A stretch of DNA of 64,000 nucleotides. Source: a plasmid. Both the position numbers and the translations under genes were made by a program. Shown here piece after piece: positions 1,401-32,245 of this stretch (positions are counted from its first letter, which is position 1; each line of letters begins with the position of its first letter). The stretch lies in the sequence record NZ_CP135254.1. One strand, 5' to 3'. The notes beneath the pieces are model-generated. The model ran no database searches and was not told the origin of the DNA. It saw only the letters and a program-made list of their open reading frames with translations.

Positions 1401-2004
1401 TGCGGCGGGCATAGGCACAACACATAATTTAGTTACATCATCCGGTTAGATTCCCCGTGAACCGCACCAGCGCAATCCTCAGCACCGCACATACCACTCA
1501 GAACACCGCAGAAACCTCGCCTCCCACCACCGGAGAACGCTGACGCTTCAACAACATATGTGCCCCCTCCCCACCACTGAAAAGCGCCGCCGCCCCCGGC
1601 CAAAGGCCGGGGAAGACATCGCTTTTAATGATGGGTGTTGTAACTACTCTTTTCATCGCTGTGGGTGGAGCTGCGGTCAGTTGTCTGGTACACGCTCGTA
1701 AGCGGCCCTCCGGCCCGCTAACGCGGAGATACGCCCCGACTGCGGCTGTCGCCTTGTCGTGACCACTCCGACCGCGTACAGAGGCGTCTGTGATGTTTTA
1801 AGCGGGTATGGCTTATCAGGGCGGGGGAAGGGATTGGCAGAACCTGTCAAAACAGCAGCCGGCTGCGCCGGGCTACGGCGCCATTTGCCCTCGGTACTCC
1901 ATTCAACTACTGCTGGCGCCTCTATGCCGCTGAAGCGGCATCCTGACTCCAGATCCACATCGATCACATCTTCTATACTTTCAGTCTGGCCACTGGAGGT
2001 AACC

Positions 2005-2513: not shown

Positions 2514-5321
2514 TCAAATTTCGGAAGCAAAGGCTGGACTGACCTGTGCCCCCTGGTTCATGATCTCGACATAGCCAATTAGCTCTGCAGAGTAACTACC
2601 ATCCCCATTGGCGGCCCCCTTATGTTTCAGTTCCCGCTGCAGAGTCGGCTCAATAACATGCGTGAATATTTCCTGCCGTTGTTCGAGCGCAAACTTCGAT
2701 AATGTTACCGGTGCCTGCAGATATTGCTCAACCTGCCGCTCAACCACCGGAACTCGTGTACCATCTTGCTTAACGGCAATCGGCTGAACCACGACTCGAC
2801 GTTCACCATTGCCAGAAGAAGCTTCGACCATCCACAGAGAGAGCAGAACAGGGGTATCTAAGTCGCCAGAAACGGCAATGCCAATTTCCTCAGGCGGAAC
2901 ACTGCGCCAGCGGCCAAGCTCTTCCTGAACCAGAGGGTGATCCAAGCCCATCAACTCCAAGTTATCGCTGCTTGTCGCTAAATCTCGGTTCAATGTGAAT
3001 CGTTGTTGACTCGACCCATCAATAGTCACTAAGTCATAGGTCTCGTTGTCGATCTTGACCAAGCGTTGCTGACGATCTGCCACCGCTGCCGAAAGGAAGC
3101 GTACCAGCCGATCCAGACTAGATGAAACATCGGAAAATGGTTTGTAGTCATCAAGACTGAAACCATCAAGGTCTTGGAATAGGTCAAAAACAACCTGTCG
3201 AGCTTCCCGTGAATTTGAGAGCGCAGCCTCAAGTTCCACTTGTGTTCGTTTCAATTCAGGGTCTGACAAAGCTTCTTGGTAGAGTCGGTCATAATTTAGA
3301 CGCTCAGATAGCTGACCAAGAATCTGTGCACGCAGGTCTTCAGCTACGTTACCTTGATCGTCAACCTTACCGACTGTCTTGGCTATTTCCGTCAGCTTTT
3401 CATCAAGCATCAAGAAAATTCGCCCTTCGATGGTATCGGAGAGAACGAGGTTGTAGACCTGCGCCGTGTGGTTTTGACCATAGCGATGAATACGCCCGAT
3501 ACGCTGTTCCACATCCATCGGGTTCCATGGCAGATCGAAATTGAACAGGATGCGCGCAAATTGCAGATTCAAACCTTCACGGCCAGCTGCAGTACAAACC
3601 AGAACACGCGGCCCATTCTTCAAGCGGAATTTCCGTTCTGCCGCCAGCTTGGCTCCATGATCGCCACCACGCAAAACCACCACTCCCTGTCCTGGATACG
3701 CCTGTTCAATCTCGCGAGCAATTAGATCGACAGTCCCAAGATAGGTGGCGAAGATAACGATCTTCTCGCTGGCATTTTGCCGCCATAAATAACCCAGACC
3801 ATCAAGCAGCTTCTGCGCCTTAGTTTCACGCTGCTGCGGAAACACATTGAGAAGATCGCCAATTCGCAAACGCTCTTCTGGCAAGTGAAGCTCCACAACA
3901 GCCGACGCAGCTTCTTCGGCATTGGTTGCCAAGTATTCACTGCCATAAGGATCGGAGGCCATCTCAAGCGCCTCTGCATCAAGCTTTTTGACCAAACGGA
4001 ACTTGAGATCGGCCAACACTCGATCCACTTCGCTACGCCCAATGCTGTCGTAAGGCAGAGCATATTCTTCATGAATCAAAACTCGAGCTTCTTCAGTCAG
4101 ACGTTCACGCCCTTCAATATCAAGATCTTTATCGCGCAGTAATGCCTCGTGGAGGGTCAACATAAGCAGACGACGCTTGAGCGTTCGGCGTACAGCCGCG
4201 AAGCTTGATGCTGCTATCTTCTGGAAAATGGCCATCAAAAAGCCCAGCGCGCGCCCCTGGTTTCCTTGACGACGAGCCAAGTCAAAACCATCCTCCAGAT
4301 ACTCGCGCAACCTCTCGTAAAACAGCCGCTCATCCTCATTCATAAGGAACGACTCGGTATGAACCCAGCGACGAGCAAACAGTGGTGAACCATCTGGTTG
4401 GCAAGCATCCGCCTTGGTCCGGCGAAACATCACAGTATTGAGACGGTGGCGGTTCTCCAGCATTTCCTCTGGGCTACCAAACAAAGTGGGGTTCAGGAGC
4501 TGCGCCAGCATCCAGAACTGAAAGTGATTGCCCTGATGCGGCGTGGCCGATAACAACATCAGGTCACGAGAGTGATCTTTCAGCGCCTCGGCGAGCTTGT
4601 AATTCTCCGTCTTCCGGACCTTACCACCCGTTCGAGAAGCCGTCAGATGATGAGCCTCATCAAAAACCACCAGATCCCACCGAGGAGCATCCAGCAAGCG
4701 TTTAATACGCGCCGGACGTTTGAGTGTATCGATGCTCGCAATCAATCGATCGTGCTTGGCAAATGCATTGGTTTTACGGTCAGTTATGTCGCCCTCAGAA
4801 CCGAACACTTCAAAATCGAGGTTGAATACCTCGTTCAGCTCCCGGTGCCAGTTATTCACTAACCCTGCAGGTACCACCATCAGTGCGCGATTCAGCTCCC
4901 CTCTGCTGGCCAACTCACGCAAAATCAAAGCTGTTTCAATGGTTTTGCCCAACCCCACCTCATCAGCGATCAGATAGCGTCGGGGGGATGCTGTCGCAAT
5001 CCGGTGCGTCAGCACCACCTGGTGCGGCAGCAGGTCAATCTTTGCGGAAGTCAGTGCCGATGCACTTTCCATGACGGGCAACGCATGGGCCTCATAGGAC
5101 AACCACGCTTTGCGCGCCCGATCTGCGCCGCCATCAACGGCACGCAGGATGCGCTCGGTGCGTGAGAGCTGGCGCCGCACAGCGCCAACAGGTACGCGGC
5201 GTTCACCAACCCCAAAGAAAGCGCGCAGGTAACCATCTCGCACAGGATCAAGCACCACCCCCTGCCCGAACTCATGGTGAATAATCCGCTCACCTGGTTG
5301 AAACAATGCATCCGCTTCCAC
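2514..5321 (-). CDS. SNF2-family (SWI2/SNF2) helicase, candidate BrxHII-like component of the defence operon
   Basis: 935 aa with an ATP-binding motif DEVGLGKT, a DEAHH box, LLSATP, and a helicase C region (QRIGRIHRYGQ). It is the last gene of an eight-gene co-directional operon. Confidence 0.75.
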   Translation of the reverse strand: MEADALFQPGERIIHHEFGQGVVLDPVRDGYLRAFFGVGERRVPVGAVRRQLSRTERILRAVDGGADRARKAWLSYEAHALPVMESASALTSAKIDLLPHQVVLTHRIATASPRRYLIADEVGLGKTIETALILRELASRGELNRALMVVPAGLVNNWHRELNEVFNLDFEVFGSEGDITDRKTNAFAKHDRLIASIDTLKRPARIKRLLDAPRWDLVVFDEAHHLTASRTGGKVRKTENYKLAEALKDHSRDLMLLSATPHQGNHFQFWMLAQLLNPTLFGSPEEMLENRHRLNTVMFRRTKADACQPDGSPLFARRWVHTESFLMNEDERLFYERLREYLEDGFDLARRQGNQGRALGFLMAIFQKIAASSFAAVRRTLKRRLLMLTLHEALLRDKDLDIEGRERLTEEARVLIHEEYALPYDSIGRSEVDRVLADLKFRLVKKLDAEALEMASDPYGSEYLATNAEEAASAVVELHLPEERLRIGDLLNVFPQQRETKAQKLLDGLGYLWRQNASEKIVIFATYLGTVDLIAREIEQAYPGQGVVVLRGGDHGAKLAAERKFRLKNGPRVLVCTAAGREGLNLQFARILFNFDLPWNPMDVEQRIGRIHRYGQNHTAQVYNLVLSDTIEGRIFLMLDEKLTEIAKTVGKVDDQGNVAEDLRAQILGQLSERLNYDRLYQEALSDPELKRTQVELEAALSNSREARQVVFDLFQDLDGFSLDDYKPFSDVSSSLDRLVRFLSAAVADRQQRLVKIDNETYDLVTIDGSSQQRFTLNRDLATSSDNLELMGLDHPLVQEELGRWRSVPPEEIGIAVSGDLDTPVLLSLWMVEASSGNGERRVVVQPIAVKQDGTRVPVVERQVEQYLQAPVTLSKFALEQRQEIFTHVIEPTLQRELKHKGAANGDGSYSAELIGYVEIMNQGAQVSPAFASEI

Positions 5322-5330
5322 TCGTCGACC

Positions 5331-5840
5331 TCAGGTAATTCGTAAATGAAACAGTCCAGCTACTTTGGCGCCTTCACGCAGCAAAATTTCCTGTGGATAC
5401 TCATTAGCCTCCCCCCATAGCAGGCGACCAAAATCAATCTGATTCTCACGATAAGGCGCCTCGCATAACCATAAAACAGCATCATTAGTAACCAGTTGTT
5501 TAAGTCGACTGTGACCTTGAGGTAACCAGAAGATCAACGCAGCTTCACCACCGTAATAATCCTGAAACGAGAGAATGGCGCTTTTAATCGTTTCTCCCAG
5601 CCAGATTTCTCCCTGTTCAGGAGCTAACAGATCGAGACAACCATCAAGCCCGGCGACAACTAATGTCTGGTTGTCATTGCTAGGGAGATCATCGGGCCAA
5701 CGTCCTTGCGATTGTAGAAACTGCCGCAAACTCCAGACCTCACTTGCGACACAGACTTGATTGCGAGCCTCTTCGTCCCACAACCAACTGGTGCCTCGTC
5801 GTTGCCACACGGTATCTACAGTCTGTCGCATTATGCCCAC
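5331..5840 (-). CDS. Hypothetical protein (169 aa), operon member between the methyltransferase and the helicase
   Basis: ORF with 9-10 bp overlaps or gaps to both neighbours and no recognisable motif. It could be a BrxA- or DUF3780-like accessory, but that is speculative. Confidence 0.35.
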   Translation of the reverse strand: MGIMRQTVDTVWQRRGTSWLWDEEARNQVCVASEVWSLRQFLQSQGRWPDDLPSNDNQTLVVAGLDGCLDLLAPEQGEIWLGETIKSAILSFQDYYGGEAALIFWLPQGHSRLKQLVTNDAVLWLCEAPYRENQIDFGRLLWGEANEYPQEILLREGAKVAGLFHLRIT

Positions 5841-8800
5841 TCCTCATCATCGTCAAATAAGGAGCCCTGCACCGGTAATGGTGCCAAACTTGCCTGCCAA
5901 TTTCGGTAAATATGGACTGCGAGGGACGCTGCATTGCGGGTAGCTTGATCCGGACCATTACGGTGCAACCATTCCAGCAGTGAACGCAGCGCAACATGCG
6001 GCTTGAAATTATCGTTATTCAGCGTATCCGAGGCACTAATTCCACTGCCATCAAAGCACGCTCCGATCAATACCAGCGCTTGGTCGAGATCGGAGGTTAG
6101 CTTACGTCGATGTTTTCGTTGCCAATCACGGGAAAAATCGAGTGGATTAGTCCGAGTGAAAACCTTCTTCGCCTCCGAACACCAGTTACGCTGAACAAAA
6201 TCATCTGGGGTAGTCACAGTTCCACGCAAATACTTTTGCAATTGATCGCGCTTCATCTCGTTAACCGAACCAAAAGTGCGCAAAAATTGTCGGGTCATGG
6301 GCTCAGCGTTCACTGGTGGTGCTTCGTTGCCTTTATCTGCATCCTCATCAATCAGTTGGTTAATACCAACCAGAGCCTCCCTAACTGAAATCGTACGCCC
6401 TTCATCAACGTACACTTTGCCGTAATGGCGAGAGAAGTATTCCAATGCTTTACCACGGCGAATAACCTGAATATCTGCAGCGGGCAAACCTGATTGAGCA
6501 TGATTCTCCAACATTCCTTGCAATTGACGCACATCAGCCATCACCTCACGACGCATCCGCCCCCAACTCACCGGCTTTGGCTCTTCCGTGCGCTTGCGGC
6601 AGACATGGATGATGTCGTATTCGATAGTTTGAGAACCGAAGGTACCTGGCTTTGCTCCATCACCTTTTGTCTCATCCGAGCGAATTGGGTAAGTTGCTTC
6701 AAGGTAATACCCGGCATCGAACAGCGACTCCAATACCGCCACCCAAGGCTCATCCGCACTATGGTGGAAGGTGAAAGCCAAGATACCACCGGGCTTCAAG
6801 AGTCGATGCGCCTCACGCCAGCACTGGGTAAGCAGCCGCTGATAGAAACCATCTGGATCTTCCGGCTCGCGAGCCCGATTGGCTACTGCCTCCAGAGACT
6901 TTGGGGTGTACTCGGAGCCAAAGATTGCTGGGTATTTGTTCTTGAGCGCCAGGCGAAGCCATACGTAGAAGAAATCGGACAGCTCCGAATAGTGCAGTAA
7001 GCCACCGAACGGAGGATCGGTAATCACCAGATCTAGGCTACCGCTTTCAAGTTGTGACAGATCTGTAGACGAGCCCTGATGCACTTCCACGTCTACAACT
7101 GCATCACCGGGGAATACCTTTTCGCTACTTGATTTTTCAACACCATCACTGCGAACCCGAGATACAGATTGGGGACTGACAAGTTCGTAAGGATTCTTAC
7201 CCCATTCAATCCCTTCTATGACACCATCAGCACAAGATGACCAGCGCCCACTACCCATAATACCGAAGCAAGACCCTTCGACAACATTTGTCTTGGGGTG
7301 ATAGTTGTTATTACTCATGTGGGGCACCAACTTGTCATAATTGATATCCCAGAAACAGAACATATTTCTATAGCGAATACTCTGCTGGAAAGCACCTAGA
7401 AGAGCCTCTCTAACACTCCAAGGGTAATCGCCAATGGTGAGAATTCCTCTCAGCAGCTGGGCTTGTGCCAGCAACTGACGAGGGTTGAACATCGTCCACC
7501 AGTGCGTATAGCCGTGGTTTGGAATGCCGCCGTTATTCATGTGTGTCATGAAACCGAAAGGCACCTCTGAACGAGGCCAATAGTCTTTGAGATCGGTATC
7601 CTTTCGTGCTTCCCATTCAACGAGCGCGGCATCGTATTGGCATGCGTGAATTGCATCATATGCGGCGAAAAAACGCCCACTATAGGGTTTGCCTGCGGCA
7701 TCGCGCTTGGGGGCGTAACCATGTACCGCATAGGCAGCCATAGGCCCGGTCTTGCCTGTGGCTTTGATGGTGGTCAGTACGTCCTGAGTTGTGCCGCAGG
7801 CTGCGCAGACGTAATGGGATTTTTTCGGTACCGTGCCATTTTGCGGAGCAAAAATGACCTTTGTTTCTGGGCACGTCACTTCCTCCGGCAGCGCGCCGCG
7901 CACCTCCAGCAGCCGAATCTTGGATGCGCGTTCATTGTCCCACCGCGTGGTTGCAGCCACATCATCCTGCGCCGAGCCGCCGTAAGGCTGGCTATTCGTA
8001 TCCTGCTTAGGCGAACCCGCCAGCCATTGCGGATGCACCAGCAGGCTCAGTTCCACCTTCTTGTTCTTGCCCTTGCCGAGGTTAACCATCGCCGTATGGC
8101 CACAATGCGGGCAGATCACGCCCTTCCGGCGGTCGAGCACAGAAAACGGATGTTCGGAAGGTGCCACATACAGTGGCGCATCTGGGGCCATCCGCGCCAT
8201 ATCTTCCTCAACATGGAAGTCGCCGCCGCACTTACTGCACGAATGCTCCCAGTGTTTGACGCTGAGCGTTTTCACCGCCATCACCGGGCTTGTCATGATC
8301 GGCGTGCGGTGACCGCAGCCCGTTACCTGACAAGGGCCGTGCTTGGCCCAGAATGTGTAGATAATCTCCGGGCCTTCGTAACGGTAATCCTTGCGCTCGT
8401 CACGAGGGATGGTCAGCGGGTCGAAATCGGCGGGCATCACCTTCTTGGTCGGTAAGTGCGTCCACGAGCCTTTCTCACCTTCCGGGCCATCGCAGTAGTA
8501 GTACGGCATGATCTGCGGCTTGACCTCGGCCTCAATGTCGGCCAGCAGCTTTTTCACTTGCTCTAGATCGACATTGGCCAGTTCCTGCTTGACCACAAAC
8601 CACGCGACGGGATTCAGGTCGTTGCCGACCATCTGCATTCCAAGGCGCGAGCCTTCCACCAGTGTGGTGCCGCCGCCCATGAAGATGTCGGCCACCTTCA
8701 GGTCCTTGAACGCACCTTTTTTCTGGTGATTGGCATAGTAGTTGTCCCACACTAGCTTGGCTGCGTGCGATTTGTCTTCCGGGGCTTTGGTCGCCGCCGC

Positions 8801-9046
8801 GATCAACATTGAGCGGAACACGCTGGAGCGCCGCCGCGCCCACCACTTCGACATCTGGTAAATCGGCTTGCCCGCGTTGCCTTCGATGATCGCCACCTGA
8901 TTGACGGGCAGGATCGGGAAGTCCACCTCCAGGCAAGTCTTGGGACGATTCGGATCGTTGAAATCGACAGTTTCAAGCGCGACCGTCTTGCCTGCGCCGA
9001 CGGCTTTGGCGACTTCTTGCGCCAGTAGTTCTTTTTTGGTGGCCAT
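5831..9046 (-). CDS. Large N6-adenine DNA methyltransferase with Zn-ribbon motifs (DUF1156/COG1743-like; candidate PglXI-type BREX methylase)
   Basis: 1071 aa with the DPPFGG catalytic motif (a DPPY-type amino-MTase motif) and several CxxC pairs (CSKCGG, CPHCGH, CAACG) typical of COG1743 methylases. It is tightly coupled to the HerA gene upstream and the 169-aa ORF downstream. Confidence 0.6.
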   Translation of the reverse strand: MATKKELLAQEVAKAVGAGKTVALETVDFNDPNRPKTCLEVDFPILPVNQVAIIEGNAGKPIYQMSKWWARRRSSVFRSMLIAAATKAPEDKSHAAKLVWDNYYANHQKKGAFKDLKVADIFMGGGTTLVEGSRLGMQMVGNDLNPVAWFVVKQELANVDLEQVKKLLADIEAEVKPQIMPYYYCDGPEGEKGSWTHLPTKKVMPADFDPLTIPRDERKDYRYEGPEIIYTFWAKHGPCQVTGCGHRTPIMTSPVMAVKTLSVKHWEHSCSKCGGDFHVEEDMARMAPDAPLYVAPSEHPFSVLDRRKGVICPHCGHTAMVNLGKGKNKKVELSLLVHPQWLAGSPKQDTNSQPYGGSAQDDVAATTRWDNERASKIRLLEVRGALPEEVTCPETKVIFAPQNGTVPKKSHYVCAACGTTQDVLTTIKATGKTGPMAAYAVHGYAPKRDAAGKPYSGRFFAAYDAIHACQYDAALVEWEARKDTDLKDYWPRSEVPFGFMTHMNNGGIPNHGYTHWWTMFNPRQLLAQAQLLRGILTIGDYPWSVREALLGAFQQSIRYRNMFCFWDINYDKLVPHMSNNNYHPKTNVVEGSCFGIMGSGRWSSCADGVIEGIEWGKNPYELVSPQSVSRVRSDGVEKSSSEKVFPGDAVVDVEVHQGSSTDLSQLESGSLDLVITDPPFGGLLHYSELSDFFYVWLRLALKNKYPAIFGSEYTPKSLEAVANRAREPEDPDGFYQRLLTQCWREAHRLLKPGGILAFTFHHSADEPWVAVLESLFDAGYYLEATYPIRSDETKGDGAKPGTFGSQTIEYDIIHVCRKRTEEPKPVSWGRMRREVMADVRQLQGMLENHAQSGLPAADIQVIRRGKALEYFSRHYGKVYVDEGRTISVREALVGINQLIDEDADKGNEAPPVNAEPMTRQFLRTFGSVNEMKRDQLQKYLRGTVTTPDDFVQRNWCSEAKKVFTRTNPLDFSRDWQRKHRRKLTSDLDQALVLIGACFDGSGISASDTLNNDNFKPHVALRSLLEWLHRNGPDQATRNAASLAVHIYRNWQASLAPLPVQGSLFDDDEEWA

Positions 9047-9056
9047 TCAAGCTTCC

Positions 9057-10868
9057 TTAATCTTCTTGTGCGCGGGATTGGCGGCGCATGTTTTCTACGG
9101 CGGCAACCAAATCGACTTCGGCCTTGGGCGTGGCCCAGCGGGTCCAGAAGGGGATCGTTGCACTGCGCGGTTCATGTTTTGGCTTGGCCATCTTGATGCG
9201 GGTCGGCAGCAGGGTGGCGTCGCCAACCACTACAGCCTCGCCTACGTCCAGCGTCGGCAGCACCTCCATCAGCCCCTCCAGGCTTTCTGGCAAGAGCTGC
9301 TTGACCACCGCCTGGTCGGTCTTGTTGGCCAGGCGCAGGCTGATGATGTTGCTGCACTGGCTGAGAATGGTCGTGCTGACATCCGAGGGGCGCTGACTGA
9401 CCACCATCAGCCCAACTCCGTACTTGCGGCCCTCTTTGGCGATGCGCTCGTAGTTTTCCAAGGCGCGCTTTTCCAGCGGGCCAGTGGAGGCGGCGCTGCT
9501 TGGCAGGTAGAGATGCGCCTCATCGCAAACGATGACAATCGGGTGGCGCGCATCGCCGTCTTCGCCCGGGCTGCTCCAGAACTGGATTTGGTAGATCAGC
9601 CGCCCGACCAAGCCCACAACCACTGGCAAGATGTCCGAGGGCACCTCGGAAAAGTCGATGATTTTGATGCCCGGATTGACGCCATCGTTGACGTTGCCTG
9701 TACCGAGCAGTTTCTTGGCGAGATCGTGTAGTGCCTCGTAGGTCTCGTAGTCCTCCGGTGCCTGATACATGAACGCATAGCGGCGGTCGTTCATTTTGGT
9801 TTTCAAGCGAATGAGGAAGCGAGAGAGCTTGCCGTTCAACGGGCCTTTTTCGGTTTTGGGCTGTCCCTTCTTCGCACCGCTGACGTATTCCTCGCCTGTG
9901 GGAATGACCTCGTCGTTTTTTCGGTCGAGGGATTCCACCAAGTCATTCAACTTGTAGGGAACCGGTGTGTCGACCGTAAACCCTTCCAGCAACTCCGGCT
10001 TGCCTAGCGCATTGATGGCAGCGCGTTTCATTTCAACGACCGAATCCATCAGGGCAAGCGCCTGATTGGGCGCATTGTCACCGGAGCGATCCACAAAAAC
10101 GGATTGCATCTCGTCATATGTCAGCAGCCAGAAAGGCAGGAAGATCGCGCCGTCTTTCTTGGTCTTGATATCGCCAATGCCTGCGATGCGGTAATGCGAG
10201 GCGAATTTCATGCTCGAATACTCGCCATGCAAATCGAGCACGACGATATTCGCGTGAGGCAGTTGTGCGGACTGCTCAAGGATGGAGGCGACGGTGAAAG
10301 ATTTTCCCGAGCCCGTGCTGCCCAGCAGCGCGGCATGGCGCTGGAAAAGCTTGTCGCCATCGATGTAGGCACTGGCCTTGCCATCCAAGGTATAGGTACC
10401 GACCTTGAGTGGGGCTGCCGCATCCGCCTTGGATGAAGCGCTCAAAATCCCCATGAAGTCTTCGAGCGACTTTTCTTCAATGGGAAACACGGGCCGGTTG
10501 ATCTCCGGCAGGATGAAAACGGCACGTGTGAAGGTGTCCTTGCGCTGCCCATCCCGAGCACGATAGGTGCCGACCAAGCTGATCGACACGCCGTTTTCCT
10601 CTTGAGGCACGCCAGCCAGATCCGCTGGCGGATCAACTTCAGGTAGCGTCGGCAGCTCCACCGGATGCCGCCAAACTCGTTCGATGATGCCGATCAGCCA
10701 TTCATCGCCCATCGACTGGATGGCAACCAATCGACCGACGCGCGCCTTTTGCAGGCGTTGGCCATCCGTCACCCGCACGGTGATCCGCGAGGTTTCAACA
10801 CTGCGGACTTCGCCCAATGACTGCTCGTCGGTGAAATTGAAAATGCTCATCCTCGCCTCACTCCACAA
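9057..10868 (-). CDS. herA: HerA-like (DUF87/FtsK-HerA superfamily) ATPase, partner of the SIR2 protein
   Basis: 603 aa with Walker A GSTGSGKS and a Walker B/DEAH-like PIVIVCDEAH. It overlaps the upstream SIR2 gene by 11 bp, the canonical SIR2-HerA pair layout. Confidence 0.7.
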   Translation of the reverse strand: MWSEARMSIFNFTDEQSLGEVRSVETSRITVRVTDGQRLQKARVGRLVAIQSMGDEWLIGIIERVWRHPVELPTLPEVDPPADLAGVPQEENGVSISLVGTYRARDGQRKDTFTRAVFILPEINRPVFPIEEKSLEDFMGILSASSKADAAAPLKVGTYTLDGKASAYIDGDKLFQRHAALLGSTGSGKSFTVASILEQSAQLPHANIVVLDLHGEYSSMKFASHYRIAGIGDIKTKKDGAIFLPFWLLTYDEMQSVFVDRSGDNAPNQALALMDSVVEMKRAAINALGKPELLEGFTVDTPVPYKLNDLVESLDRKNDEVIPTGEEYVSGAKKGQPKTEKGPLNGKLSRFLIRLKTKMNDRRYAFMYQAPEDYETYEALHDLAKKLLGTGNVNDGVNPGIKIIDFSEVPSDILPVVVGLVGRLIYQIQFWSSPGEDGDARHPIVIVCDEAHLYLPSSAASTGPLEKRALENYERIAKEGRKYGVGLMVVSQRPSDVSTTILSQCSNIISLRLANKTDQAVVKQLLPESLEGLMEVLPTLDVGEAVVVGDATLLPTRIKMAKPKHEPRSATIPFWTRWATPKAEVDLVAAVENMRRQSRAQED

Positions 10869-11934
10869 ATTTTTTCAAAAAGTCATCTAGCTGCCAGAGC
10901 GGCTCTGGTGACCGCAGTGCATTCCCTTTCCAGCGACAAACGGCCCCGTCCCCATCTTTGAACACGGCAATCACGTGAGGGTGTTCGCCAAGTAGTTGTT
11001 CAATGTTCGGAGTCGGGTTGCGCGTGACAATGATTGCGGGCATGCCTGCGGCCAGGCGGCGCTTGATGACGCCTTGCAAATGATCGTCGTTGAAGCCAAA
11101 CCCGATACATAACAGCGCCTGAGCATCAGCAAGCGCCGCATTCATCGCTGTACGCATTTCGTCAAACAAGATATTGACCAATGCGTCTTGGTACTTCGAG
11201 GGGCCGGGCACAACGATGGCTCGTTCCGCGACGGAAACATCGTTGAGAACTTCCACTGGCCCCTCATCCGTTGTCAGCCAACTGATTGAGCCATGAGGCT
11301 TATACAGACGAACTGTTTTACAGATGCGGTGATCGACCTGCTGCTGGCGTTTCTCGGCCACCAGAACACGGCTGTATTGCGTCTGGAAGAGTGGCCGGGG
11401 GCGCGGCTTACGCCGACGGAACCCTGTGAATCCTGTGTCCAGAGGGATTTCCGCGAGATCGCAAAACAATTCCAACAACGTATCGTAGTTAGTCGTAATG
11501 ACATGGATGCTGTCCGTGTTCTGCGGTGAGCCACTAAACAAACGATTCAGGAGGCGTGACGGCGCATGACCACCGGCAACCTTTTCGCCAAGAATTTTTG
11601 CCTCTGCGGCGATGGCTCTATCAAGAATCAACTTCGCGGTTTCTCCGCGTAGGGCTGACACGATCTCTCCCCATTCCGCCATGCCAAGCGGAATGCCATT
11701 CAGCCCAGCTTCGAGATTTGCCTTGATTGCGTCGACTGATTGCGCCCAGGTATTCCTTGCCCCATCGGTGGACAGAGCATCGTGCACAGCGGTTGCCAAG
11801 TGCTCCGCCAAGGCACCCATGCCGGGAAGGCCATAGCCGCAGGAAAAGCCAGAGCCGACAAGCAGCACCGGGGTTTTGCGAAAAAACCCTTGGATATCTG
11901 CGAAAAAATCGTCTGGCAAGTCGGCGGCTGTCAT
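10858..11934 (-). CDS. SIR2-like (SIR2_2 family) NADase-type effector of a SIR2-HerA antiphage system
   Basis: 358 aa with the N-terminal PVLLVGSGFSCGYGLP motif (the Rossmann GxGxS of SIR2_2 family proteins) and an ITTNYDTLLE motif. It lies immediately upstream of herA on the same strand. Confidence 0.65.
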   Translation of the reverse strand: MTAADLPDDFFADIQGFFRKTPVLLVGSGFSCGYGLPGMGALAEHLATAVHDALSTDGARNTWAQSVDAIKANLEAGLNGIPLGMAEWGEIVSALRGETAKLILDRAIAAEAKILGEKVAGGHAPSRLLNRLFSGSPQNTDSIHVITTNYDTLLELFCDLAEIPLDTGFTGFRRRKPRPRPLFQTQYSRVLVAEKRQQQVDHRICKTVRLYKPHGSISWLTTDEGPVEVLNDVSVAERAIVVPGPSKYQDALVNILFDEMRTAMNAALADAQALLCIGFGFNDDHLQGVIKRRLAAGMPAIIVTRNPTPNIEQLLGEHPHVIAVFKDGDGAVCRWKGNALRSPEPLWQLDDFLKKFVE

Positions 11935-11940
11935 ATCTAC

Positions 11941-12960
11941 CTACTTCGATAGTTCAACGAAGGGCGACAGCACTTCCAGCAGCGAGAGGCCGCCGTGCGT
12001 CAATGTCGGGTAACCGCCCTGACTGCGCCACTTTCTGCGGCCCAGCGCCAACAGGTGCGCACCGTGCGGACTGTCAATTTGCAACGCAACGGGAGGCACA
12101 AAGGGGCCAGTGTCACCGTTACCAGCCTTGCTACGCCCGCTTGAGAACGTTTGCTTGAGGTGGGCGACAACCTCACCATCGGCATCGGGGAAGTAACCCG
12201 TGGCGGCGTAGCCGTGATCCGAGGTAATGACCAAGCGCCGCCCAGTGGCGAGGCGCTCAACAAAGGCCCAAAAGTCGTCACTAGAAAGTTGCTGCGCAGC
12301 ATCCTTGGTCAGCAGCTCCAGACCTTGGCCTGCGCCGTAGTCGTGCAGCTTGGCGTCTGGCCAGTGATGCCAGAACACCCAGTTCTTCGCGCCAGATGCA
12401 CTGCCCACCAAACCTTCGCAATCCTTCCACGGCAGATCGATGGTTTCGGTCTGCGCGGGTTGAAGTTTGTGTGCCAATCCACCGCCGTTGGCCTGCAACT
12501 GGCTTCGGCTGGACAAGCCCAGCGCTCGGGCAAACTCGTTGGTTTCGCCGGGTAATTCGGAGGCGGTCGCTGTGACGCCCTGCAGGGTGAATCCACGTTC
12601 TTTCGCTCCCTGCAGCAACCAAGGCAGTTCGCGCAGGCTCAGGGCATCCAGAACCAGCACGGCGCGGGCAGCACTGTTGCCATAACTCGGCTCGGCCCAC
12701 CAACGCGCAAGACGGTCTGAGGTGCGTTCCACGCCGCTGATCTCGGATTGTCCGAAGCATCGCCACAGATCCCAACCACTGGACGCAAGGAACAGATCGA
12801 GCTCGCCGATCTCGCGGTCGCGCTTTACGACCTCGCCCGGGGCATTGCCCTCGGCCAATGGTCGTGAGGCGATATCGAGCGTGCGTTCGATGATGAAACT
12901 CCACGCATCCGCTGCGGTGCCTTGAGTCAGACGCTGCAATATTCCTGCATCAAGCGCCAT
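11941..12960 (-). CDS. Short PglZ-like (alkaline-phosphatase-fold) protein
   Basis: 339 aa with RRLVITSDHGYAATGYFP, the TxDHG signature of the alkaline phosphatase superfamily to which PglZ belongs. Its start overlaps the stop of the upstream 718-aa gene (ATGA), and the SIR2 gene begins 6 bp after its stop. It is much shorter than BREX type-1 PglZ (about 850 aa). Confidence 0.45.
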   Translation of the reverse strand: MALDAGILQRLTQGTAADAWSFIIERTLDIASRPLAEGNAPGEVVKRDREIGELDLFLASSGWDLWRCFGQSEISGVERTSDRLARWWAEPSYGNSAARAVLVLDALSLRELPWLLQGAKERGFTLQGVTATASELPGETNEFARALGLSSRSQLQANGGGLAHKLQPAQTETIDLPWKDCEGLVGSASGAKNWVFWHHWPDAKLHDYGAGQGLELLTKDAAQQLSSDDFWAFVERLATGRRLVITSDHGYAATGYFPDADGEVVAHLKQTFSSGRSKAGNGDTGPFVPPVALQIDSPHGAHLLALGRRKWRSQGGYPTLTHGGLSLLEVLSPFVELSK

Positions 12961-15116
12961 CAGTTGTCCTCCTTCTCAAGACTCAGCTCGAAAGTCATGC
13001 CATCGGGCAGCTTCTTGAGCAGTTCCTTGAGCTGCGCGCCGGTGGCGGCAGACACCTTGATTGAGACTTCTGCCACAGGCGTGGCCGGGCCAATACCCCA
13101 GCCTTCGAGCTTGCCGATCAGGTTTAGCGGCGAGGTTGGCGGGTTAGAGAGCGGGATGCGCGGTTTGGTGGTGCTGCTTGTGCCGCCACCAAAAATGTCA
13201 CCTCCATTCTGCGACGTACCGGTGCCGGGAGTGTTATCGCCACCAACAGGTGCGGGTGGTGTGGTCGTGCCACCGCCAAAGATATCGCCGCCCGATCCAT
13301 TATTGGGGGTGCCTGCAGGTGGCTGCGGCACGGGTGGAGTAGTGCCGCCAGTGGCAGGCACAGCCGAGGGTTCCATAAGGAACACTTCATCAAGCTGACG
13401 CCCGGTATAGGAGAGTTTGGGCCGCAAGCGCCGCCACGCAGATTCCTCGTCCTCGCCTGCGTGGGTTTGCAGATGCTCCAGATTACGCAGGTTGATGGCG
13501 ATCTTGCCGCGCGCGCACAGACGGAGGATGCGCTCCTTCATCGCAGTTTCGCCCAGCCAAGGGATGCAATCCTGGCCTGCCGGGCGTGGCTCCTGCAGTT
13601 CGCGCAGCAGCTTGCCGAGGGATGCGTTCTCAGATGCCGCTTCGAGCACGAGCTCTTCGAAGTCTTCGGGCACGAAGAGATCGTTGGTCAGCGTTTCCTC
13701 GATGCCCTCGGGAATTTGTGCACCTTGCTTTTTCAAGTGCTCGACACTGAATAGAGATTGCTGCGGGTTTTGGTGATCGTAGCGGTGCAAGACAGCGAAA
13801 CGGTCAAAGCGCTTCTTCAGGTTGTCACGCAGGGTGCCTTCGAACTCTTTGTGGAGCTTTTTGTATTCCGCCGGATTTGTGGAATTATGGCCGCTCCATT
13901 CCTGCGCCTTCATTTCAGCGCGCGCGAGGATGAGCAGATCGCGATCCAGGAATGCATTGGTGGAACCAGATCGGGGCAACAGGAAGCGAACTGTATTGCG
14001 GCGCTTTTGCAGGTGATCTTTGAGCCAACGGCCCAGTGTCTGATCGATTTTTTCCGGTTCTTCCGGCAGTACCAGGACAGGCAAACGGTCATCCCAGCGC
14101 TCTGGCTGCTCGGCTTCATCTAGTGATGTCCATGGGTCTGTCTGCCAAGATCTAGGCAGTGCAATCACGCGGAAATTTTTTGCGACCTCATCGCTGCCGC
14201 CGATGACATAGCGAGCCTGTTTGGCCAACTGTGCCAGATCGGAGCCATCGGTAAATAGCTTGTCGTTACGGGCACAAACCATCAATTTGGCACGAGGGTT
14301 TTCTTCCTCACGAAAGACCATACGCGGGCCATCCTGATGGATGTTGAAGCTGTTCTCGACAATCGTTGCCAGCTCGACCTGGAAAGCATTGCCATCCACA
14401 GGCTTGTTTCGAGTGATGTCCACCTGCAGCGTGGCGGGATCGGCTCCCGCGAGGTTGCCGACGGCAATCGACCGCAGCCACAGTGCCCCCACGATCTCTT
14501 GCAGGTGTGGTGCAAGGTTGGCGTGGTTGTATACCGCCTCGGTCACCGAGATGATGTTGTGCTGCGCTTTTTCTCGCAGGGTGCGATGGTGCTCATTAGA
14601 AACCGAATCCAGCAGTGCGCCGATGCCCGATGCATCGTCATCCAGCCGGAAGTCGGCGGCGGTGAGCACAGGCACGGCTTCGCCACGGCTCTTGTAAAGA
14701 TTAGCCAAGATGCGAATCATGTCGCGCGTTTCCTGCGCGTCAGTGGCGATCAGCACCTGTTCCTCAAGCAGACGTAACAGGTGCGGTGCATAAGGCCAAG
14801 ACTCGGTGAACTCGCGACGCTTGCGATCCTGCTCGGCGGGCGGCACATCAAGCAGGCGGAAGTATTCTGAGACGTGCTGGGCAACTAGTGATTCAATGGT
14901 GCCATCGGCAATCTGCAAGCGGTTGTCGAACAGACGGTGCAACAACATCCGGCGCCGATCCTGCTGTATACGCTCGGCATTACCCCCCGCCTTGAAGTCG
15001 ATGGCCACCGGGTTGACGCGGTGAACCTGCTGGTAGGCATCGCTGCCGCCATTGCGCACGGATATCACGAGCACCAACAAATCAGGGGTCGTCTCAGAAT
15101 TCGGAAAATAAAGCAC
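12960..15116 (-). CDS. Large uncharacterised protein (718 aa), first gene of the defence operon; no P-loop; low-complexity Gly/Thr/Pro tail with repeated GGDIFGGG
   Basis: ORF translation shows no Walker A motif, and its C-terminal 120 aa is a G/T/P-rich linker plus a small terminal domain. It may be a 5'-truncated or divergent BrxC/DUF499-class component, or a novel protein. Confidence 0.35.
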   Translation of the reverse strand: MLYFPNSETTPDLLVLVISVRNGGSDAYQQVHRVNPVAIDFKAGGNAERIQQDRRRMLLHRLFDNRLQIADGTIESLVAQHVSEYFRLLDVPPAEQDRKRREFTESWPYAPHLLRLLEEQVLIATDAQETRDMIRILANLYKSRGEAVPVLTAADFRLDDDASGIGALLDSVSNEHHRTLREKAQHNIISVTEAVYNHANLAPHLQEIVGALWLRSIAVGNLAGADPATLQVDITRNKPVDGNAFQVELATIVENSFNIHQDGPRMVFREEENPRAKLMVCARNDKLFTDGSDLAQLAKQARYVIGGSDEVAKNFRVIALPRSWQTDPWTSLDEAEQPERWDDRLPVLVLPEEPEKIDQTLGRWLKDHLQKRRNTVRFLLPRSGSTNAFLDRDLLILARAEMKAQEWSGHNSTNPAEYKKLHKEFEGTLRDNLKKRFDRFAVLHRYDHQNPQQSLFSVEHLKKQGAQIPEGIEETLTNDLFVPEDFEELVLEAASENASLGKLLRELQEPRPAGQDCIPWLGETAMKERILRLCARGKIAINLRNLEHLQTHAGEDEESAWRRLRPKLSYTGRQLDEVFLMEPSAVPATGGTTPPVPQPPAGTPNNGSGGDIFGGGTTTPPAPVGGDNTPGTGTSQNGGDIFGGGTSSTTKPRIPLSNPPTSPLNLIGKLEGWGIGPATPVAEVSIKVSAATGAQLKELLKKLPDGMTFELSLEKEDN

Positions 15117-15300
15117 GCTAGCGGTTGATCTGTCAGGTTGAAGCCTGAGAGGCCGAGCGCAGATCGTCAGAAAAGGCGAAAAACGATCCTAATCTGACGC
15201 AACATAGGTGGGGTGCCTGACGCCCGGTTGAGGCATAGCCTAGATTGACATGCGCGATGCAACCCTTAACTTGCTTGCACCTATCGTTTCCATGCTAGCT

Positions 15301-15432
15301 TTATCGTAACGCTAAGGAAGCTCTGAAAAAGCCCATGTTTCGCGAAATCACCGCTCTGTAACCCGCATGGTTGCTGGGATGCATTTCTCGAGCGGGGGCT
15401 TTTTCAGACCTTCCTTAGCTTAGCGTACGATT
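15301..15432. repeat. Imperfect inverted repeat of about 33 bp (cgtaacgctaaggaagctctgaaaaagcc versus ggctttttcagaccttccttagcttagcgtacg) flanking an ~60-bp spacer
   Basis: Read directly. It lies in the promoter-proximal region upstream of the 718-aa gene, between the operon and the repB remnant. Confidence 0.4.
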
Positions 15433-15473
15433 TTTTCCGAATTCTGCGGTTCCCCCTGGAAGACCTACGCAAG

Positions 15474-16073
15474 TTGGGCCAGCTCAGAGGTGGAATCAAC
15501 GAAGGCGAGCGAATGAGGCATCTTTTCTGGCGTCTTAACTTTCTCCTTCTCTCCGGGGCAACAAACAGCGCCCAGATGTACCATGAGGCCGCCGCTCTTT
15601 CCTCCGAGCTGGATACTCGTTGGTCTTACCGCTCCAAAGAGCTTATGACGCTCTACAGCAAGGCGAAATCCTATGAGGCTGGGGAACGTGTCGAGTTCGG
15701 CGGAAAGTCGTTTGCACCGCTATACACGCCCAAAAACGACACGCTGATCAACCTATTCCAGATCTCACAGCAAGAACAAGAGCAACTGAAGACGATTATC
15801 AGCACTGACGAGGCTCAGAAGCGCCGCAGAGAGCGCGATAGACTGCGTGATGAAGAACGTCGCCGCGCCGCTGGCCAGCTTGAGCGTGAAGCCTATGAAG
15901 CCAACTCATTGAGCAGGCAAAAGCCCTGGGAAGCTATGGGCATGAGCCGGGCTAAATGGTATCGCCTGGGCAAGCCTTCACCTCAACAAAACAGTGAGAC
16001 AAGTCCCTCCCCTATTACTAATGGCGAAGCCTCAGCGGTTGCCCTTCAGGCGGCCAGGTGTAAAGCCGTTTAG
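15474..16073 (+). pseudogene. Truncated replication-protein remnant (position consistent with delta-repB of NTEKPC-I contexts)
   Basis: 199-aa ORF with a charged R/E-rich segment (KRRRERDRLRDEERRR) and no complete domain. Its position next to the klcA region matches the published delta-repB...klcA...korC...ISKpn6...blaKPC arrangement. The identity is inferred from context. Confidence 0.35.
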
Positions 16074-16995: not shown

Positions 16996-17421
16996 ATGAT
17001 GCAAACAGAACTTAATCCCCTGATCTGCTCCCTGGTCGCCACCCCTCGCCGTATGGCTGCAATGCCCCGCTATGTAGGCCGTTTCTATGTGGTTTTCGAG
17101 TCGATGCTTTACCAGCAAATGAAAGGGCTCTGCCGCGAGTATCGCGGGGCTTATTGGCTTATGTGGGAGCTGTCGAACGGCGGCTTTTATATGGCTCCTG
17201 GGCGTCGTGATGAAATGCTGAACATCGAGGCCATGAACTACTTTAGTGGCCAAATGAGCGCCGATGCTGCCGGGATTACCGCTTGCCTCTACCTCTATAG
17301 CCATCTGTCATTTCACACAGAAGGCGCTGACCAGGAGCGGTTTTCAAGGCTGTATCACAGCTTGCGGGATTGGGCTTGTGAGCATGACGAAAAAGAGGCC
17401 ATCTTGGCCGCAATAGACTAG
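16996..17421 (+). CDS. klcA: KlcA/ArdB-family antirestriction protein
   Basis: 141 aa (MMQTELNPLICSLVATPRRMAAMPRYVGRFYVVFESMLYQ...ILAAID) matching the KlcA family pattern. It sits at the typical position next to KPC islands. Confidence 0.65.
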   Translation: MMQTELNPLICSLVATPRRMAAMPRYVGRFYVVFESMLYQQMKGLCREYRGAYWLMWELSNGGFYMAPGRRDEMLNIEAMNYFSGQMSADAAGITACLYLYSHLSFHTEGADQERFSRLYHSLRDWACEHDEKEAILAAID

Positions 17422-29255: not shown

Positions 29256-30689
29256 ATGTCTGAATTTGAATTACTGGCGCAGGATCTGCTTGAGAAAGCA
29301 GAGATAGACGAAAAGCTCCGGCAGGAAAATGATAAAAAGCTAATTGAGCAGGTGCTGGAAATCTATGATCAGAAGTACGTGGCCGAGTTACTTAGGAAAG
29401 TCGGCAAAAACGAGTGGACTCGCGAGACTCTTAATCGCTGGATTAATGGTAAGTGTTCACCTAAGTCGCTGACGTCAGCCGAAGAGGCTCTTCTGCGAAA
29501 AATGCTGCCGGAAGCGCCAGCGCATCACCCGGACTATGCTTTCCGGTTTATTGACCTGTTTGCCGGCATTGGCGGTATACGAAAAGGCTTTGAAGCCATC
29601 GGTGGCCAGTGCGTTTTTACCAGTGAATGGAATAAAGAGGCTGTGCGCACGTATAAAGCCAACTGGTTTAACGATGAGCAGGCACACACGTTTAATCTCG
29701 ATATCCGGGAAGTTACGCTCAGTGACAAACCTGAAGTACCAGAAACTGATGCCTATGCCTACATTGACGAGCATGTGCCGGATCATGATGTACTTCTGGC
29801 TGGTTTCCCTTGTCAGCCGTTCAGCCTTGCTGGCGTGAGTAAGAAAAACTCACTCGGCCGGGCGCACGGTTTCGAATGTGAAGCGCAGGGAACCCTTTTC
29901 TTTGATGTCGCGCGCATTATCCGCGCCAAAAAGCCGGCTGTCTTTGTGCTGGAAAACGTTAAAAACCTGAAGAGCCATGACAAGGGTAAAACCTTTAAAG
30001 TCATTATGGAGACCCTGGACGAGCTGGGTTATGAAGTGGCGGATGCGGCTGACATGGGCAAAAGCGATCCTAAAGTCATCGACGGAAAGCATTTCCTGCC
30101 TCAGCACCGTGAACGTATCGTGCTGGTTGGTTTCCGCCGCGATCTGAATATTCACCAGGGTTTTACCCTGCGGGATGTCAGTCGTTTTTATCCGGAACAG
30201 CGGCCGTCATTTGGCGAACTACTGGAGCCAGTGGTGGACAGCAAATATATCCTGACGCCAAAGCTCTGGGAGTACCTTTACAACTACGCCAAAAAGCACG
30301 CGGCTAAGGGGAACGGCTTCGGTTTTGGCCTGGTAAACCCTGAAAACAGGGAAAGCGTTGCCCGTACGCTTTCTGCCCGCTATCACAAAGACGGATCTGA
30401 AATTCTGATTGATCGTGGCTGGGATATGGCTACGGGTGAAACAGATTTCGCGAACGAAGAAAATCAGGCGCATCGGCCACGCAGGCTGACGCCGCGTGAG
30501 TGCGCGCGCCTCATGGGCTTCGAGAAGCCCGACGGCAGGCCTTTCCGTATTCCGGTGTCGGACACGCAGTCTTACCGTCAGTTCGGTAACTCCGTAGTGG
30601 TTCCTGTGTTTGAAGCGGTTGCGAGACTGCTGGAGCCTTACATTCTGAAAGCCGTTTCTGCCGGTGCTGGGAAGGTGGATAACATCTGA
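29256..30689 (+). CDS. ecoRIIM: DNA cytosine-5 methyltransferase, Dcm/M.EcoRII-like (CCWGG-type)
   Basis: 477 aa, collinear with E. coli Dcm and M.EcoRII ([38 protein letters not shown]..., [36 protein letters not shown]..., ENVKNL). An RBS ggagg precedes the ATG at 29256. The longer listed ORF from 28962 is an upstream extension. Confidence 0.8.
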
Positions 30690-30723
30690 GTGCACCTCCC
30701 GGCAGGGTATGCCGGGAGATTAT

Positions 30724-31932: not shown

Positions 31933-32245
31933 ACATATCCCTCTGTTGTCCTGAAATTCAACTCGTCATTTTTCCACAGTCAGACAGAAGCTGCTAGGAA
32001 GGCTTTTGTAGATGCTCTGCCTGCAGCTGAAACCGACTGTAATCAGAAAAAAGAAAAGTATCCTTCTGGGCTCCTACGGCTCGCCAGATTCTGATGGTGC
32101 AATGCAAGGTCAAATCCTGCAGCTGGCTAAAGTCCGCTATGAGCGAACAGCGGACGTTGGACTTCCCAACCTTACAAGGTAATCTAGTTTGCAAAGTTAG
32201 CGACCTCGCGCAGCCGCACTAATAAAAAGAATAGGAACGGTACAA

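What the first reader, a model, noticed from the sequence alone, without database searches (positions are those of the whole stretch)
12960..15116. Operon-leading 718-aa protein lacks any P-loop and ends in a G/T/P-rich linker with duplicated GGDIFGGG, while the expected BrxC-class ATPase is absent
BREX-family loci always encode a large P-loop ATPase (BrxC/PglY, DUF499). The only candidate here has no Walker A in its translation. It could be (i) a divergent or novel component, or (ii) the C-terminal two-thirds of a brxC-like gene whose 5' ATPase half was lost. The resistance-island remnant (delta-repB, 15474-16073) begins just upstream, which is compatible with truncation by the rearrangement that brought in the KPC module. 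The C-terminal tail (TGGTTPPVPQPPAGTPNNGSGGDIFGGGTTTPPAPVGGDNTPGTGTSQNGGDIFGGGTSST) followed by a small terminal domain is unusual for cytoplasmic defence proteins.
Basis: inference. Interest (0 to 1): 0.6.

Follow-up and report, generated by a model that had tools for sequence, protein, structure and literature searches.

The report
Transposon-truncated defence ATPase gene remnant
The P-loop-less 718-aa ORF is what remains of a 921-aa DUF499 ATPase gene from a BREX-related phage-defence operon, cut off at the end of a transposon repeat beside the KPC resistance module, so it is an ordinary broken gene and not a new kind of protein.

Summary
The ORF, its lack of a Walker A motif and the G/T/P-rich tail with two GGDIFGGG copies are all real. 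It is not a novel component.

The window is Klebsiella plasmid NZ_CP084988.1. Eight other PLSDB plasmids carry the same operon intact: an HTH gene, then a 921-aa DUF499 AAA+ ATPase with Walker A GERGLGKS at residue 67 and Walker B LLLDEF at residue 175. The window matches that gene exactly from codon 214 onward (window 15086 downward).

Immediately upstream of 15086 lies the outer end of a 38-bp Tn3-family inverted repeat. It belongs to a 372-bp repeat-bounded element sitting between delta-repB and the remnant. The ORF's first 10 codons are read out of that repeat. The missing 5' 639 bp and the HTH gene are absent from the whole plasmid.

Full length is the norm: 118 of 120 close homologues, 30 distant ones and 79 of 80 genomic loci are about 875-1025 aa with a P-loop. 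All share the linker-plus-small-domain tail, so the tail is a family trait.

The locus fits the published "Type-3 BREX-related" (Hma-like) system, with SIR2-HerA embedded in a known cargo slot. Interest is low.

The parts
12960..15086 (-). 3' remnant (codons 214-921 plus stop) of a DUF499 AAA+ ATPase gene. It lacks Walker A and Walker B.
   Evidence: 100% identical to L001:14001-16127 of the intact 921-aa gene in pKPN-262. The intact protein hits PF04465 at 27.9 bits against a cut-off of 23; the remnant hits nothing.
15087..15116 (-). Ten fortuitous in-frame codons (GTG-LYFPNSETT) read out of the transposon inverted repeat. Not original coding sequence.
   Evidence: Sequence comparison of the window with the intact gene at the junction.
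15085..15456 (.). 372-bp element bounded by two 38-bp Tn3-family-type inverted repeats (15085-15122, GGGGTCGTCTCAGAATTCGGAAAATAAAGCACGCTAGC; 15419-15456, reverse complement GGGGGAACCGCAGAATTCGGAAAAAATCGTACGCTAAG). It forms the junction between delta-repB and the truncated gene. No 5-bp target duplication.
   Evidence: The same 372-bp unit is found at 100% identity in other plasmid contexts, also without target duplications.
13167..13370 (-). G/T/P-rich linker, predicted disordered (ORF residues 583-650), with two GGDIFGGG motifs at 13269-13292 and 13182-13205.
   Evidence: No secondary structure in the AF2 model. A linker is present in all homologues; a [DG][IL]FGG-type motif is found in about a third of distant ones.
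12963..13166 (-). Conserved C-terminal domain of about 68 aa (KPRIPLSNPPTSPLNLIGKLEGWGI...GAQLKELLKKLPDGMTFELSLEKEDN).
   Evidence: Nearly invariant in 65 close homologues and recognisable in 30 distant ones. AF2 gives beta-alpha-beta at pLDDT 62-81. Fold not assigned.
11941..12960 (-). 339-aa PglZ-like (alkaline-phosphatase superfamily) protein. Its start overlaps the remnant's stop.
   Evidence: Weak hits to BREX-3 PglZ (E = 0.0027) and PADLOC PglZ (E = 0.012). Invariant TSDHGY and HGGLSLLE motifs. Some sources name it 'alkaline phosphatase'. hhalign to E. coli PglZ aligns only the HGG..E motif.
9057..11934 (-). Embedded SIR2 (10858-11934) and HerA (9057-10850) defence pair.
   Evidence: PADLOC SIR2 9.6e-88 and HerA 1.8e-225. 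Absent from the same slot in the Burkholderia and Methylococcus loci.
2514..9046 (-). DUF1156-type N6-adenine methyltransferase (5831-9046), a 166-aa protein in the position of the published iSTAND (5331-5831), and a nuclease-less Swi2/Snf2 helicase (2514-5321).
   Evidence: Identical in sequence to the intact pKPN-262 locus.

Best explanation
The ORF is a 5'-truncated, almost certainly non-functional remnant of the DUF499 AAA+ ATPase gene of a plasmid-borne BREX-related (Type-3 BR, Hma-like) defence operon. In the ancestral plasmid the operon read HTH regulator, DUF499 ATPase (921 aa), PglZ-like, [SIR2-HerA cargo], DUF1156 methyltransferase, 166-aa protein, Snf2 helicase. A Tn3-family element associated with the Tn6296-type KPC-2 platform landed in codon 213/214 of the ATPase gene. 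Later recombination or deletion removed everything on the 5' side: the first 213 codons with Walker A and B, the HTH gene and the operon's upstream region. This left delta-repB, the 372-bp IR-bounded element and the ATPase 3' part joined together (mechanism inferred). What remains cannot bind or hydrolyse ATP and has lost its translational coupling and its native promoter region. By analogy with BREX, the modification and restriction functions of the BR system are therefore expected to be off (inferred). The G/T/P linker and small terminal domain are normal, conserved features of this ATPase family.
For: (1) Identity: the window is NZ_CP084988.1. It equals the intact pKPN-262 locus from L001 14001 = window 15086 down to 1560, with a single nucleotide difference inside the defence genes. 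(2) The intact gene is 921 aa with Walker A at residues 67-74 and Walker B at 175-180, and it passes the PF04465 cut-off. PDLLVLV, where the window copy begins, is residue 214. (3) The junction is the GGGG outer end of a 38-bp Tn3-family inverted repeat. A second repeat 300 bp away abuts delta-repB, and there is no target duplication. (4) The 5' 1,051 bp (HTH gene plus gene start) occurs in only 9 PLSDB records, and this plasmid is not one of them. (5) 118 of 120 close homologues are 904-944 aa with GERGLGKS; the two shortest (801 and 812 aa) lack it. 30 distant homologues (32-56% identity) are 875-1025 aa with Walker A and B. 79 of 80 loci, each from a different species' genome, match residue 1 to about 920. 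(6) Intact operons in Burkholderia, Methylococcus and Delftia all start HTH_17 then the roughly 915-aa ATPase. (7) No sigma-70-like promoter was found upstream of the remnant or inside the operon. (8) The locus architecture matches the published Type-3 BR description (PMC12839542).
Against: No expression or function data exist. The remnant and all six downstream genes are intact ORFs identical to the functional-looking allele, so residual activity of downstream genes from read-through transcription cannot be excluded. The order of events (insertion then deletion, versus recombination between two copies of the 372-bp element) is inferred. The element was not matched to a named reference transposon.
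Confidence: 0.95

Rival explanations
1. The 718-aa protein is a genuine, divergent P-loop-less component that natively leads the operon.
For: The ORF is long, uninterrupted and annotated as a normal CDS by PGAP. It gives no Pfam, PADLOC or NCBIfam hit on its own.
Against: It is 100% identical to residues 214-921 of a 921-aa P-loop protein. Its first 10 codons are transposon repeat sequence. All homologues and all intact loci are full length.
Confidence: 0.02
2. The remnant is still made and does something, for example as a scaffold or sensor fragment or a dominant-negative that silences related BR systems. On this view it is retained by selection in KPC plasmids.
For: The identical truncated allele is present in 19 PLSDB plasmids from five genera. 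The same gene is independently split by IS26 in a Raoultella plasmid. The sensor-like C-terminal regions are intact.
Against: Zero sequence decay is equally explained by very recent clonal spread of one plasmid lineage. No promoter-like site or obvious ribosome-binding site precedes either candidate start. Truncation splits the AAA+ core, so misfolding is likely (inference).
Confidence: 0.05
3. The junction is an assembly artefact, a mis-join at a repeated transposon end.
For: The junction lies at a repeat element present in thousands of plasmid records.
Against: Nineteen independently assembled complete plasmids share the same junction at 99.8-100% identity over 2.8 kb. The 5' part is absent from the entire record.
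Confidence: 0.01

Closest known systems
DUF499 ATPase of Type-3 BREX-Related (BR) systems (Rakesh & Krishnan, NAR 2026, PMC12839542)
   Same: The gene set and order match the description. There is a DUF499 AAA+ ATPase, a separate small PglZ-like gene, a DUF1156-type N6-methyltransferase with zinc-ribbon hits, and a short protein where the iSTAND is described. The Swi2/Snf2 helicase has no nuclease fusion. The ATPase ends in a small alpha+beta domain.
   Different: This copy has lost residues 1-213 and the upstream HTH gene. PglZ and iSTAND identity rest on weak or no sequence signal here. The paper's RRM fold for the terminal domain could not be confirmed. The family's accessions were not found in the paper's held supplements.
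Hma system (HmaA helicase, HmaB methylase, HmaC DUF499 ATPase; PADLOC; PMC8565338, PMC11232893)
   Same: Among DUF499-centred systems Hma gives the closest PADLOC models. HmaB is the best hit for the methylase (7.8e-35). HmaC is the best hit for the intact ATPase (2.1e-4). HmaA scores 7.7e-91 for the helicase, second to BrxHI at 1.9e-102. Defence genes are embedded inside the operon, as reported for Hma.
   Different: The characterised HmaA carries a C-terminal nuclease that is essential for defence. The helicase here has none and is BrxH-like. The HmaC match is marginal.
BrxC/PglY of canonical BREX
   Same: A large N-terminal AAA+ ATPase in a methylase, PglZ and helicase context. Loss of the ATPase is expected to disable the system (inference from BREX genetics).
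   Different: A profile of 30 diverse family members aligns with E. coli HS BrxC over only 30 columns around the P-loop (probability 6%). The C-terminal architecture differs (PMC12839542).
Tn6296-type blaKPC-2 platform
   Same: The gene content next to the break is as published: Tn3 tnpA-tnpR, ISKpn27, blaKPC-2, korC/klcA region, delta-repB.
   Different: The literature describes delta-repB followed by delta-mcp-IRR of Tn1722. Here it is followed by a 372-bp unit with an inverted repeat at both ends. Its identity with the Tn1722 3' end was not tested.

Membership tests
DUF499 (PF04465) AAA+ ATPase | Match to PF04465 above Pfam's gathering score | tested here: met
   The intact allele scores 27.9 bits against a cut-off of 23, E = 6.7e-7. 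17 of 30 distant relatives match, best 1.4e-10. The window remnant alone gives no hit because half of the matched segment (residues 157-340) is deleted.
DUF499 (PF04465) AAA+ ATPase | Walker A and Walker B motifs in the N-terminal domain | tested here: not met
   Not met by the window copy: no [AG]xxxxGK[ST] motif. Met by the intact allele (GERGLGKS at 67, LLLDEF at 175) and by the homologues. The window copy is therefore a broken member, not a non-member.
DUF499 (PF04465) AAA+ ATPase | C-terminal RRM/ferredoxin-like domain (as described in PMC12839542) | tested here: inconclusive
   The AF2 model of the last 146 aa has mean pLDDT 57 and shows only a beta-alpha-beta unit at moderate confidence. 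Foldseek against PDB gave no hit with E below 3.7.
Type-3 BREX-Related (BR) system | Tripartite core: DUF499 ATPase, DUF1156-type N6-MTase, and Swi2/Snf2 helicase without nuclease fusion | tested here: met
   N6_N4_Mtase 29.4 bits against 26.7. HmaB 7.8e-35. DUF1156_antiphage 2.9e-22. SNF2-rel_dom plus Helicase_C. BrxHI|BrxHII 1.9e-102 over residues 94-890 of 935. No nuclease domain hit.
Type-3 BREX-Related (BR) system | Standalone active PglZ gene in the core locus | tested here: inconclusive
   Only weak hits: BREX_PglZ_3 E = 0.0027 and PADLOC PglZ E = 0.012. No Pfam PglZ hit in 39 members. hhalign to E. coli PglZ gave E = 0.011 over the HGG..E motif only. TSDHGY and HGGLSLLE are invariant. 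Some sources name it 'alkaline phosphatase'.
Type-3 BREX-Related (BR) system | Inactive STAND (iSTAND) gene | tested here: inconclusive
   The 166-aa gene sits in the expected position and is conserved in all loci. It has no hit in Pfam, PADLOC or NCBIfam. No structure was predicted.
Canonical BREX BrxC | Homology to BrxC beyond the P-loop | tested here: not met
   hhalign of a 30-sequence family profile against E. coli HS BrxC aligned 30 columns around Walker A, probability 6.4%. No BrxC model appears among the PADLOC or NCBIfam hits.
Hma (PADLOC) | HmaA helicase with C-terminal PD-(D/E)xK nuclease, plus HmaB and HmaC | tested here: not met
   The helicase matches HmaA only over profile positions 92-652 of 1176 and is better matched by BrxHI. 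No nuclease domain was detected. HmaC matches the intact ATPase at only 2.1e-4.

The most novel reading that the evidence does not exclude
The ATPase gene of this plasmid-borne BREX-related system may be a recurrent target of inactivation in clinical resistance plasmids. Two independent events were seen: the Tn3-family junction shared by 19 PLSDB plasmids and an IS26 split in a Raoultella plasmid, against 8 intact copies. That could reflect selection against an active BR system on conjugative KPC plasmids. Separately, the conserved disordered linker with repeated [DG][IL]FGG motifs plus the roughly 60-aa terminal domain could be an uncharacterised partner-docking module of Type-3 BR ATPases.
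Probability: 0.15. Interest if true: 0.4.

Novelty: already known. Interest (0 to 1): 0.15.

Why it matters
The value is mainly in annotation and interpretation. RefSeq lists this remnant as an ordinary 'DUF499 domain-containing protein'. Defence-system finders would score the locus as incomplete or odd, when it is a transposon-killed copy of a described system. For KPC-plasmid biology, it means a widespread Chinese KPC-2 plasmid lineage carries a BREX-related operon that has lost its ATPase, regulator and upstream region. Its modification and restriction functions, and possibly the embedded SIR2-HerA, may therefore be silent. No new mechanism is implied.

Tried and rejected
(1) AlphaFold2 of the 708-aa remnant with 65 homologues failed (mean pLDDT 36.6). 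The retrievable homologues are 84-100% identical, so the alignment was too shallow and no fold search was run on it.

(2) AF2 of the last 146 aa was only moderately confident (pLDDT 57). Foldseek against PDB found nothing significant.

(3) Profile searches of PDB sequences with the ATPase and PglZ-like alignments gave nothing useful.

(4) hhalign against E. coli HS BrxC and PglZ aligned only the P-loop and the HGG..E motif.

(5) I looked for the family's accessions in the supplements of PMC12839542 and found none.

(6) I looked for 5-bp target duplications around the 372-bp element in three contexts and found none. Simple one-step transposition of that unit is therefore not supported.

(7) Promoter scans found nothing upstream of the remnant or within the operon. 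The one hit in the intact locus lies inside the HTH gene and is at chance level.

(8) I rejected the idea that hits covering only 81% of the query had a different C-terminus. Their tails are the same; the BLAST alignment simply broke in the low-complexity linker.
Full report
**Observation.** The minus-strand ORF at 12960-15116 is real (718 aa, GTG start). Its translation contains no Walker A motif. GGDIFGGG occurs twice, at residues 609 and 638, inside a 70-residue stretch that is 18 G, 13 T and 12 P. On its own the protein hits nothing in Pfam, PADLOC or NCBIfam.

**Identity of the window and the intact allele.**
- A megablast of 12700-15500 shows the window is Klebsiella pneumoniae plasmid pKP18-2110-2-2 (NZ_CP084988.1, 142 kb, IncFII, KPC-2), positions 1-64000.
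- PGAP annotates the ORF as a 705-aa 'DUF499 domain-containing protein' starting at 15077.
- Nineteen PLSDB plasmids share the whole 2.8-kb query. They come from Klebsiella (four species labels), Raoultella and Enterobacter.
- Nine others match only from query position 415 onward, which corresponds to window 15086 and below.
- In one of these, pKPN-262 (locus L001), the gene is 921 aa. An 82-aa HTH gene precedes it, and the HTH stop overlaps its start.
- The 921-aa protein has Walker A GERGLGKS at residues 67-74 and Walker B LLLDEF at 175-180. It passes the Pfam DUF499 gathering score (27.9 against 23 bits) and also hits AAA_16 and AAA_22.
- The window copy begins at P214 (PDLLVLV).

**The junction.**
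- BLAST of L001 against the window gives one collinear block, L001 14001-27527 = window 15086-1560. Nothing upstream of L001 14001 is found in the window.
- At the junction the window reads ...CGTGCTTTATTTTCCGAATTCTGAGACGACCCC|TGATTTG. The intact gene reads ...GCCAAAGAACGGCC|TGATTTG.
- The foreign sequence is the terminus of a 38-bp Tn3-family-type inverted repeat at 15085-15122, with its GGGG outer end next to the gene.
- A partner repeat lies at 15419-15456.
- The 372-bp repeat-bounded unit recurs at 100% identity in other plasmids, including next to blaKPC-2 in an IncN plasmid. In none of three contexts, including this one, is it flanked by a target duplication.
- Codons 1-10 of the 718-aa ORF are therefore repeat sequence that happens to be in frame.
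- The missing 1,051 bp (HTH gene plus the first 639 bp of the ATPase gene) is present in only nine PLSDB records, and this plasmid is not among them.
- The neighbouring genes (Tn3 tnpA/tnpR, ISKpn27, blaKPC-2, klcA region) are the published Tn6296-type platform.
- Inference: a Tn3-family element inserted in codon 213/214. The 5' side was then lost by recombination or deletion. The exact path was not determined.

**Is full length the norm?** Yes, on several lines of evidence.
- Of the 120 best database homologues (81-100% identity), 118 are 904-944 aa and carry GERGLGKS near residue 67. The other two (801 and 812 aa) lack it.
- An exhaustive HMMER search of 1.84 billion representatives found 951 relatives.
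- The 30 full-length distant ones I inspected (32-56% identity) are 875-1025 aa. All have an N-terminal P-loop and most have an LxLDE Walker B.
- In a scan covering one genome per species, 79 of the 80 retained loci match residue 1 to about 920.
- Intact operons in Burkholderia sp. YI23, Methylococcus capsulatus Bath and Delftia all begin HTH_17 then the roughly 915-aa ATPase.
Alternative (i) is rejected.

**The tail.**
- The linker and terminal domain are conserved. In 65 close homologues the terminal roughly 68 residues are almost invariant, and two GGxIFGGG-like motifs sit in a compositionally conserved linker.
- In the distant set every protein ends with a low-complexity P/T/G/S linker of variable length. 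This is followed by a recognisable domain of about 60 aa (S.LNLLG..E.WG...V..V.L....G.QL..L.KKLP....L.L..E). A [DG][IL]F[GA]-type motif recurs in about a third of them.
- The tail is a family trait, not an oddity of this copy.
- The recent survey of BREX-related systems describes DUF499 ATPases as an AAA+ core, then wHTH/alpha+beta/wHTH modules, then a hypervariable C-terminal RRM-like domain (PMC12839542).
- I could not confirm the RRM fold. The full-length AF2 model failed (pLDDT 36.6). The 146-aa C-terminal model shows a disordered linker and a beta-alpha-beta unit at pLDDT 62-81. Foldseek found nothing significant.

**What the locus is.**
- Downstream of the remnant lie, in order: a 339-aa protein, SIR2 and HerA, a 1071-aa methyltransferase, a 166-aa protein with no hits, and a 935-aa Snf2 helicase.
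- The 339-aa protein has weak hits to the C-terminus of PglZ models and invariant TSDHGY and HGGLSLLE motifs.
- SIR2 and HerA score 9.6e-88 and 1.8e-225 against PADLOC.
- The methyltransferase hits N6_N4_Mtase and has best PADLOC hit HmaB, with weak DUF1156 signal.
- The helicase's best PADLOC hit is BrxHI|BrxHII at 1.9e-102, and it has no nuclease domain.
- This is the architecture published as the Type-3 BREX-Related system. The family was also called Hma.
- The upstream HTH passes NCBIfam's MAD1 model (80.8 against 80 bits).
- Canonical BrxC is only a distant analogue. A 30-sequence profile aligns with E. coli HS BrxC only around the P-loop.
- PglZ and iSTAND assignments remain inconclusive by my tests.

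**Consequence.**
- Between 2514 and 15086 the window differs from the intact pKPN-262 locus by a single nucleotide (10254, HerA H199Q). The truncation is therefore recent, or the lineage is clonal.
- The genes are tightly packed (overlaps or gaps of 6-10 bp), so they presumably depend on upstream transcription.
- The native upstream region is gone, and no sigma-70-like site was detected upstream of the remnant or inside the operon.
- I infer that the ATPase is dead and the BR system is disabled. Whether SIR2-HerA is still expressed is unknown.

**Verdict.** The object is a transposon-truncated gene of an already described family, so interest is low.

Noticed in passing
window 9057-11934; loci L014-L093: The short gap between the PglZ-like gene and the methyltransferase gene is a cargo slot. 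Of 73 genomic loci, 39 are empty (13-71 bp). Another 11 hold IetA-IetS, 7 hold SIR2-HerA and 3 hold a Ppl-like gene. Three hold a 249-aa gene plus a PemK/MazF toxin, 6 hold an unknown gene of about 310 aa, and a few hold other inserts or deletion remnants. A second slot between the 166-aa gene and the helicase holds HEC-01A/B (AAA_21 + DUF4276) in several loci. Embedding of defence genes in Hma-type operons is already reported.
   Followed up: partly
AP022439.1 (L006 4704-7127; L007 4165-4679): In Raoultella planticola plasmid pSTW0522-56-1 the same ATPase gene is broken at a different place by IS26. The HTH gene plus the first ~240 bp sit next to one IS26 copy, and an 807-aa 3' ORF sits next to another copy about 180 kb away. 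This is a second, independent inactivation.
   Followed up: partly
window 10254: This is the only nucleotide difference from the intact pKPN-262 locus across 12.5 kb of defence genes. It changes HerA residue 199 (H here, Q in pKPN-262), about 20 residues after the P-loop-type hits.
   Followed up: no
window 15085-15456: The 372-bp unit with Tn3-family inverted repeats at both ends also contains an internal 24-bp, 96% complementary inverted repeat (15311-15334 and 15396-15419). It occurs at 100% identity in several other plasmid contexts, none of those examined with a target duplication. Whether it is a mobile miniature element or a fixed transposon remnant is unresolved.
   Followed up: partly
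window 1560-1835: Twenty-seven of the 28 differences from pKPN-262 cluster in this roughly 280-bp stretch between the helicase gene and repA. It looks like the edge of a recombination patch where homology ends.
   Followed up: no
window 29256-34999 and 16996-17421: The annotation lists other defence and anti-defence genes on the same plasmid: a Dcm-type methyltransferase plus type II restriction endonuclease, a TrlF-family AAA-like ATPase, and the KlcA antirestriction gene inside the KPC platform.
   Followed up: no
L001 13114-13362 (absent from window): The HTH gene that leads intact operons passes NCBIfam's model for MAD1, the HTH component of the MADS methylation-associated defence system (80.8 bits against a cut-off of 80). 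This suggests a regulator type shared between MADS and these BR operons.
   Followed up: no
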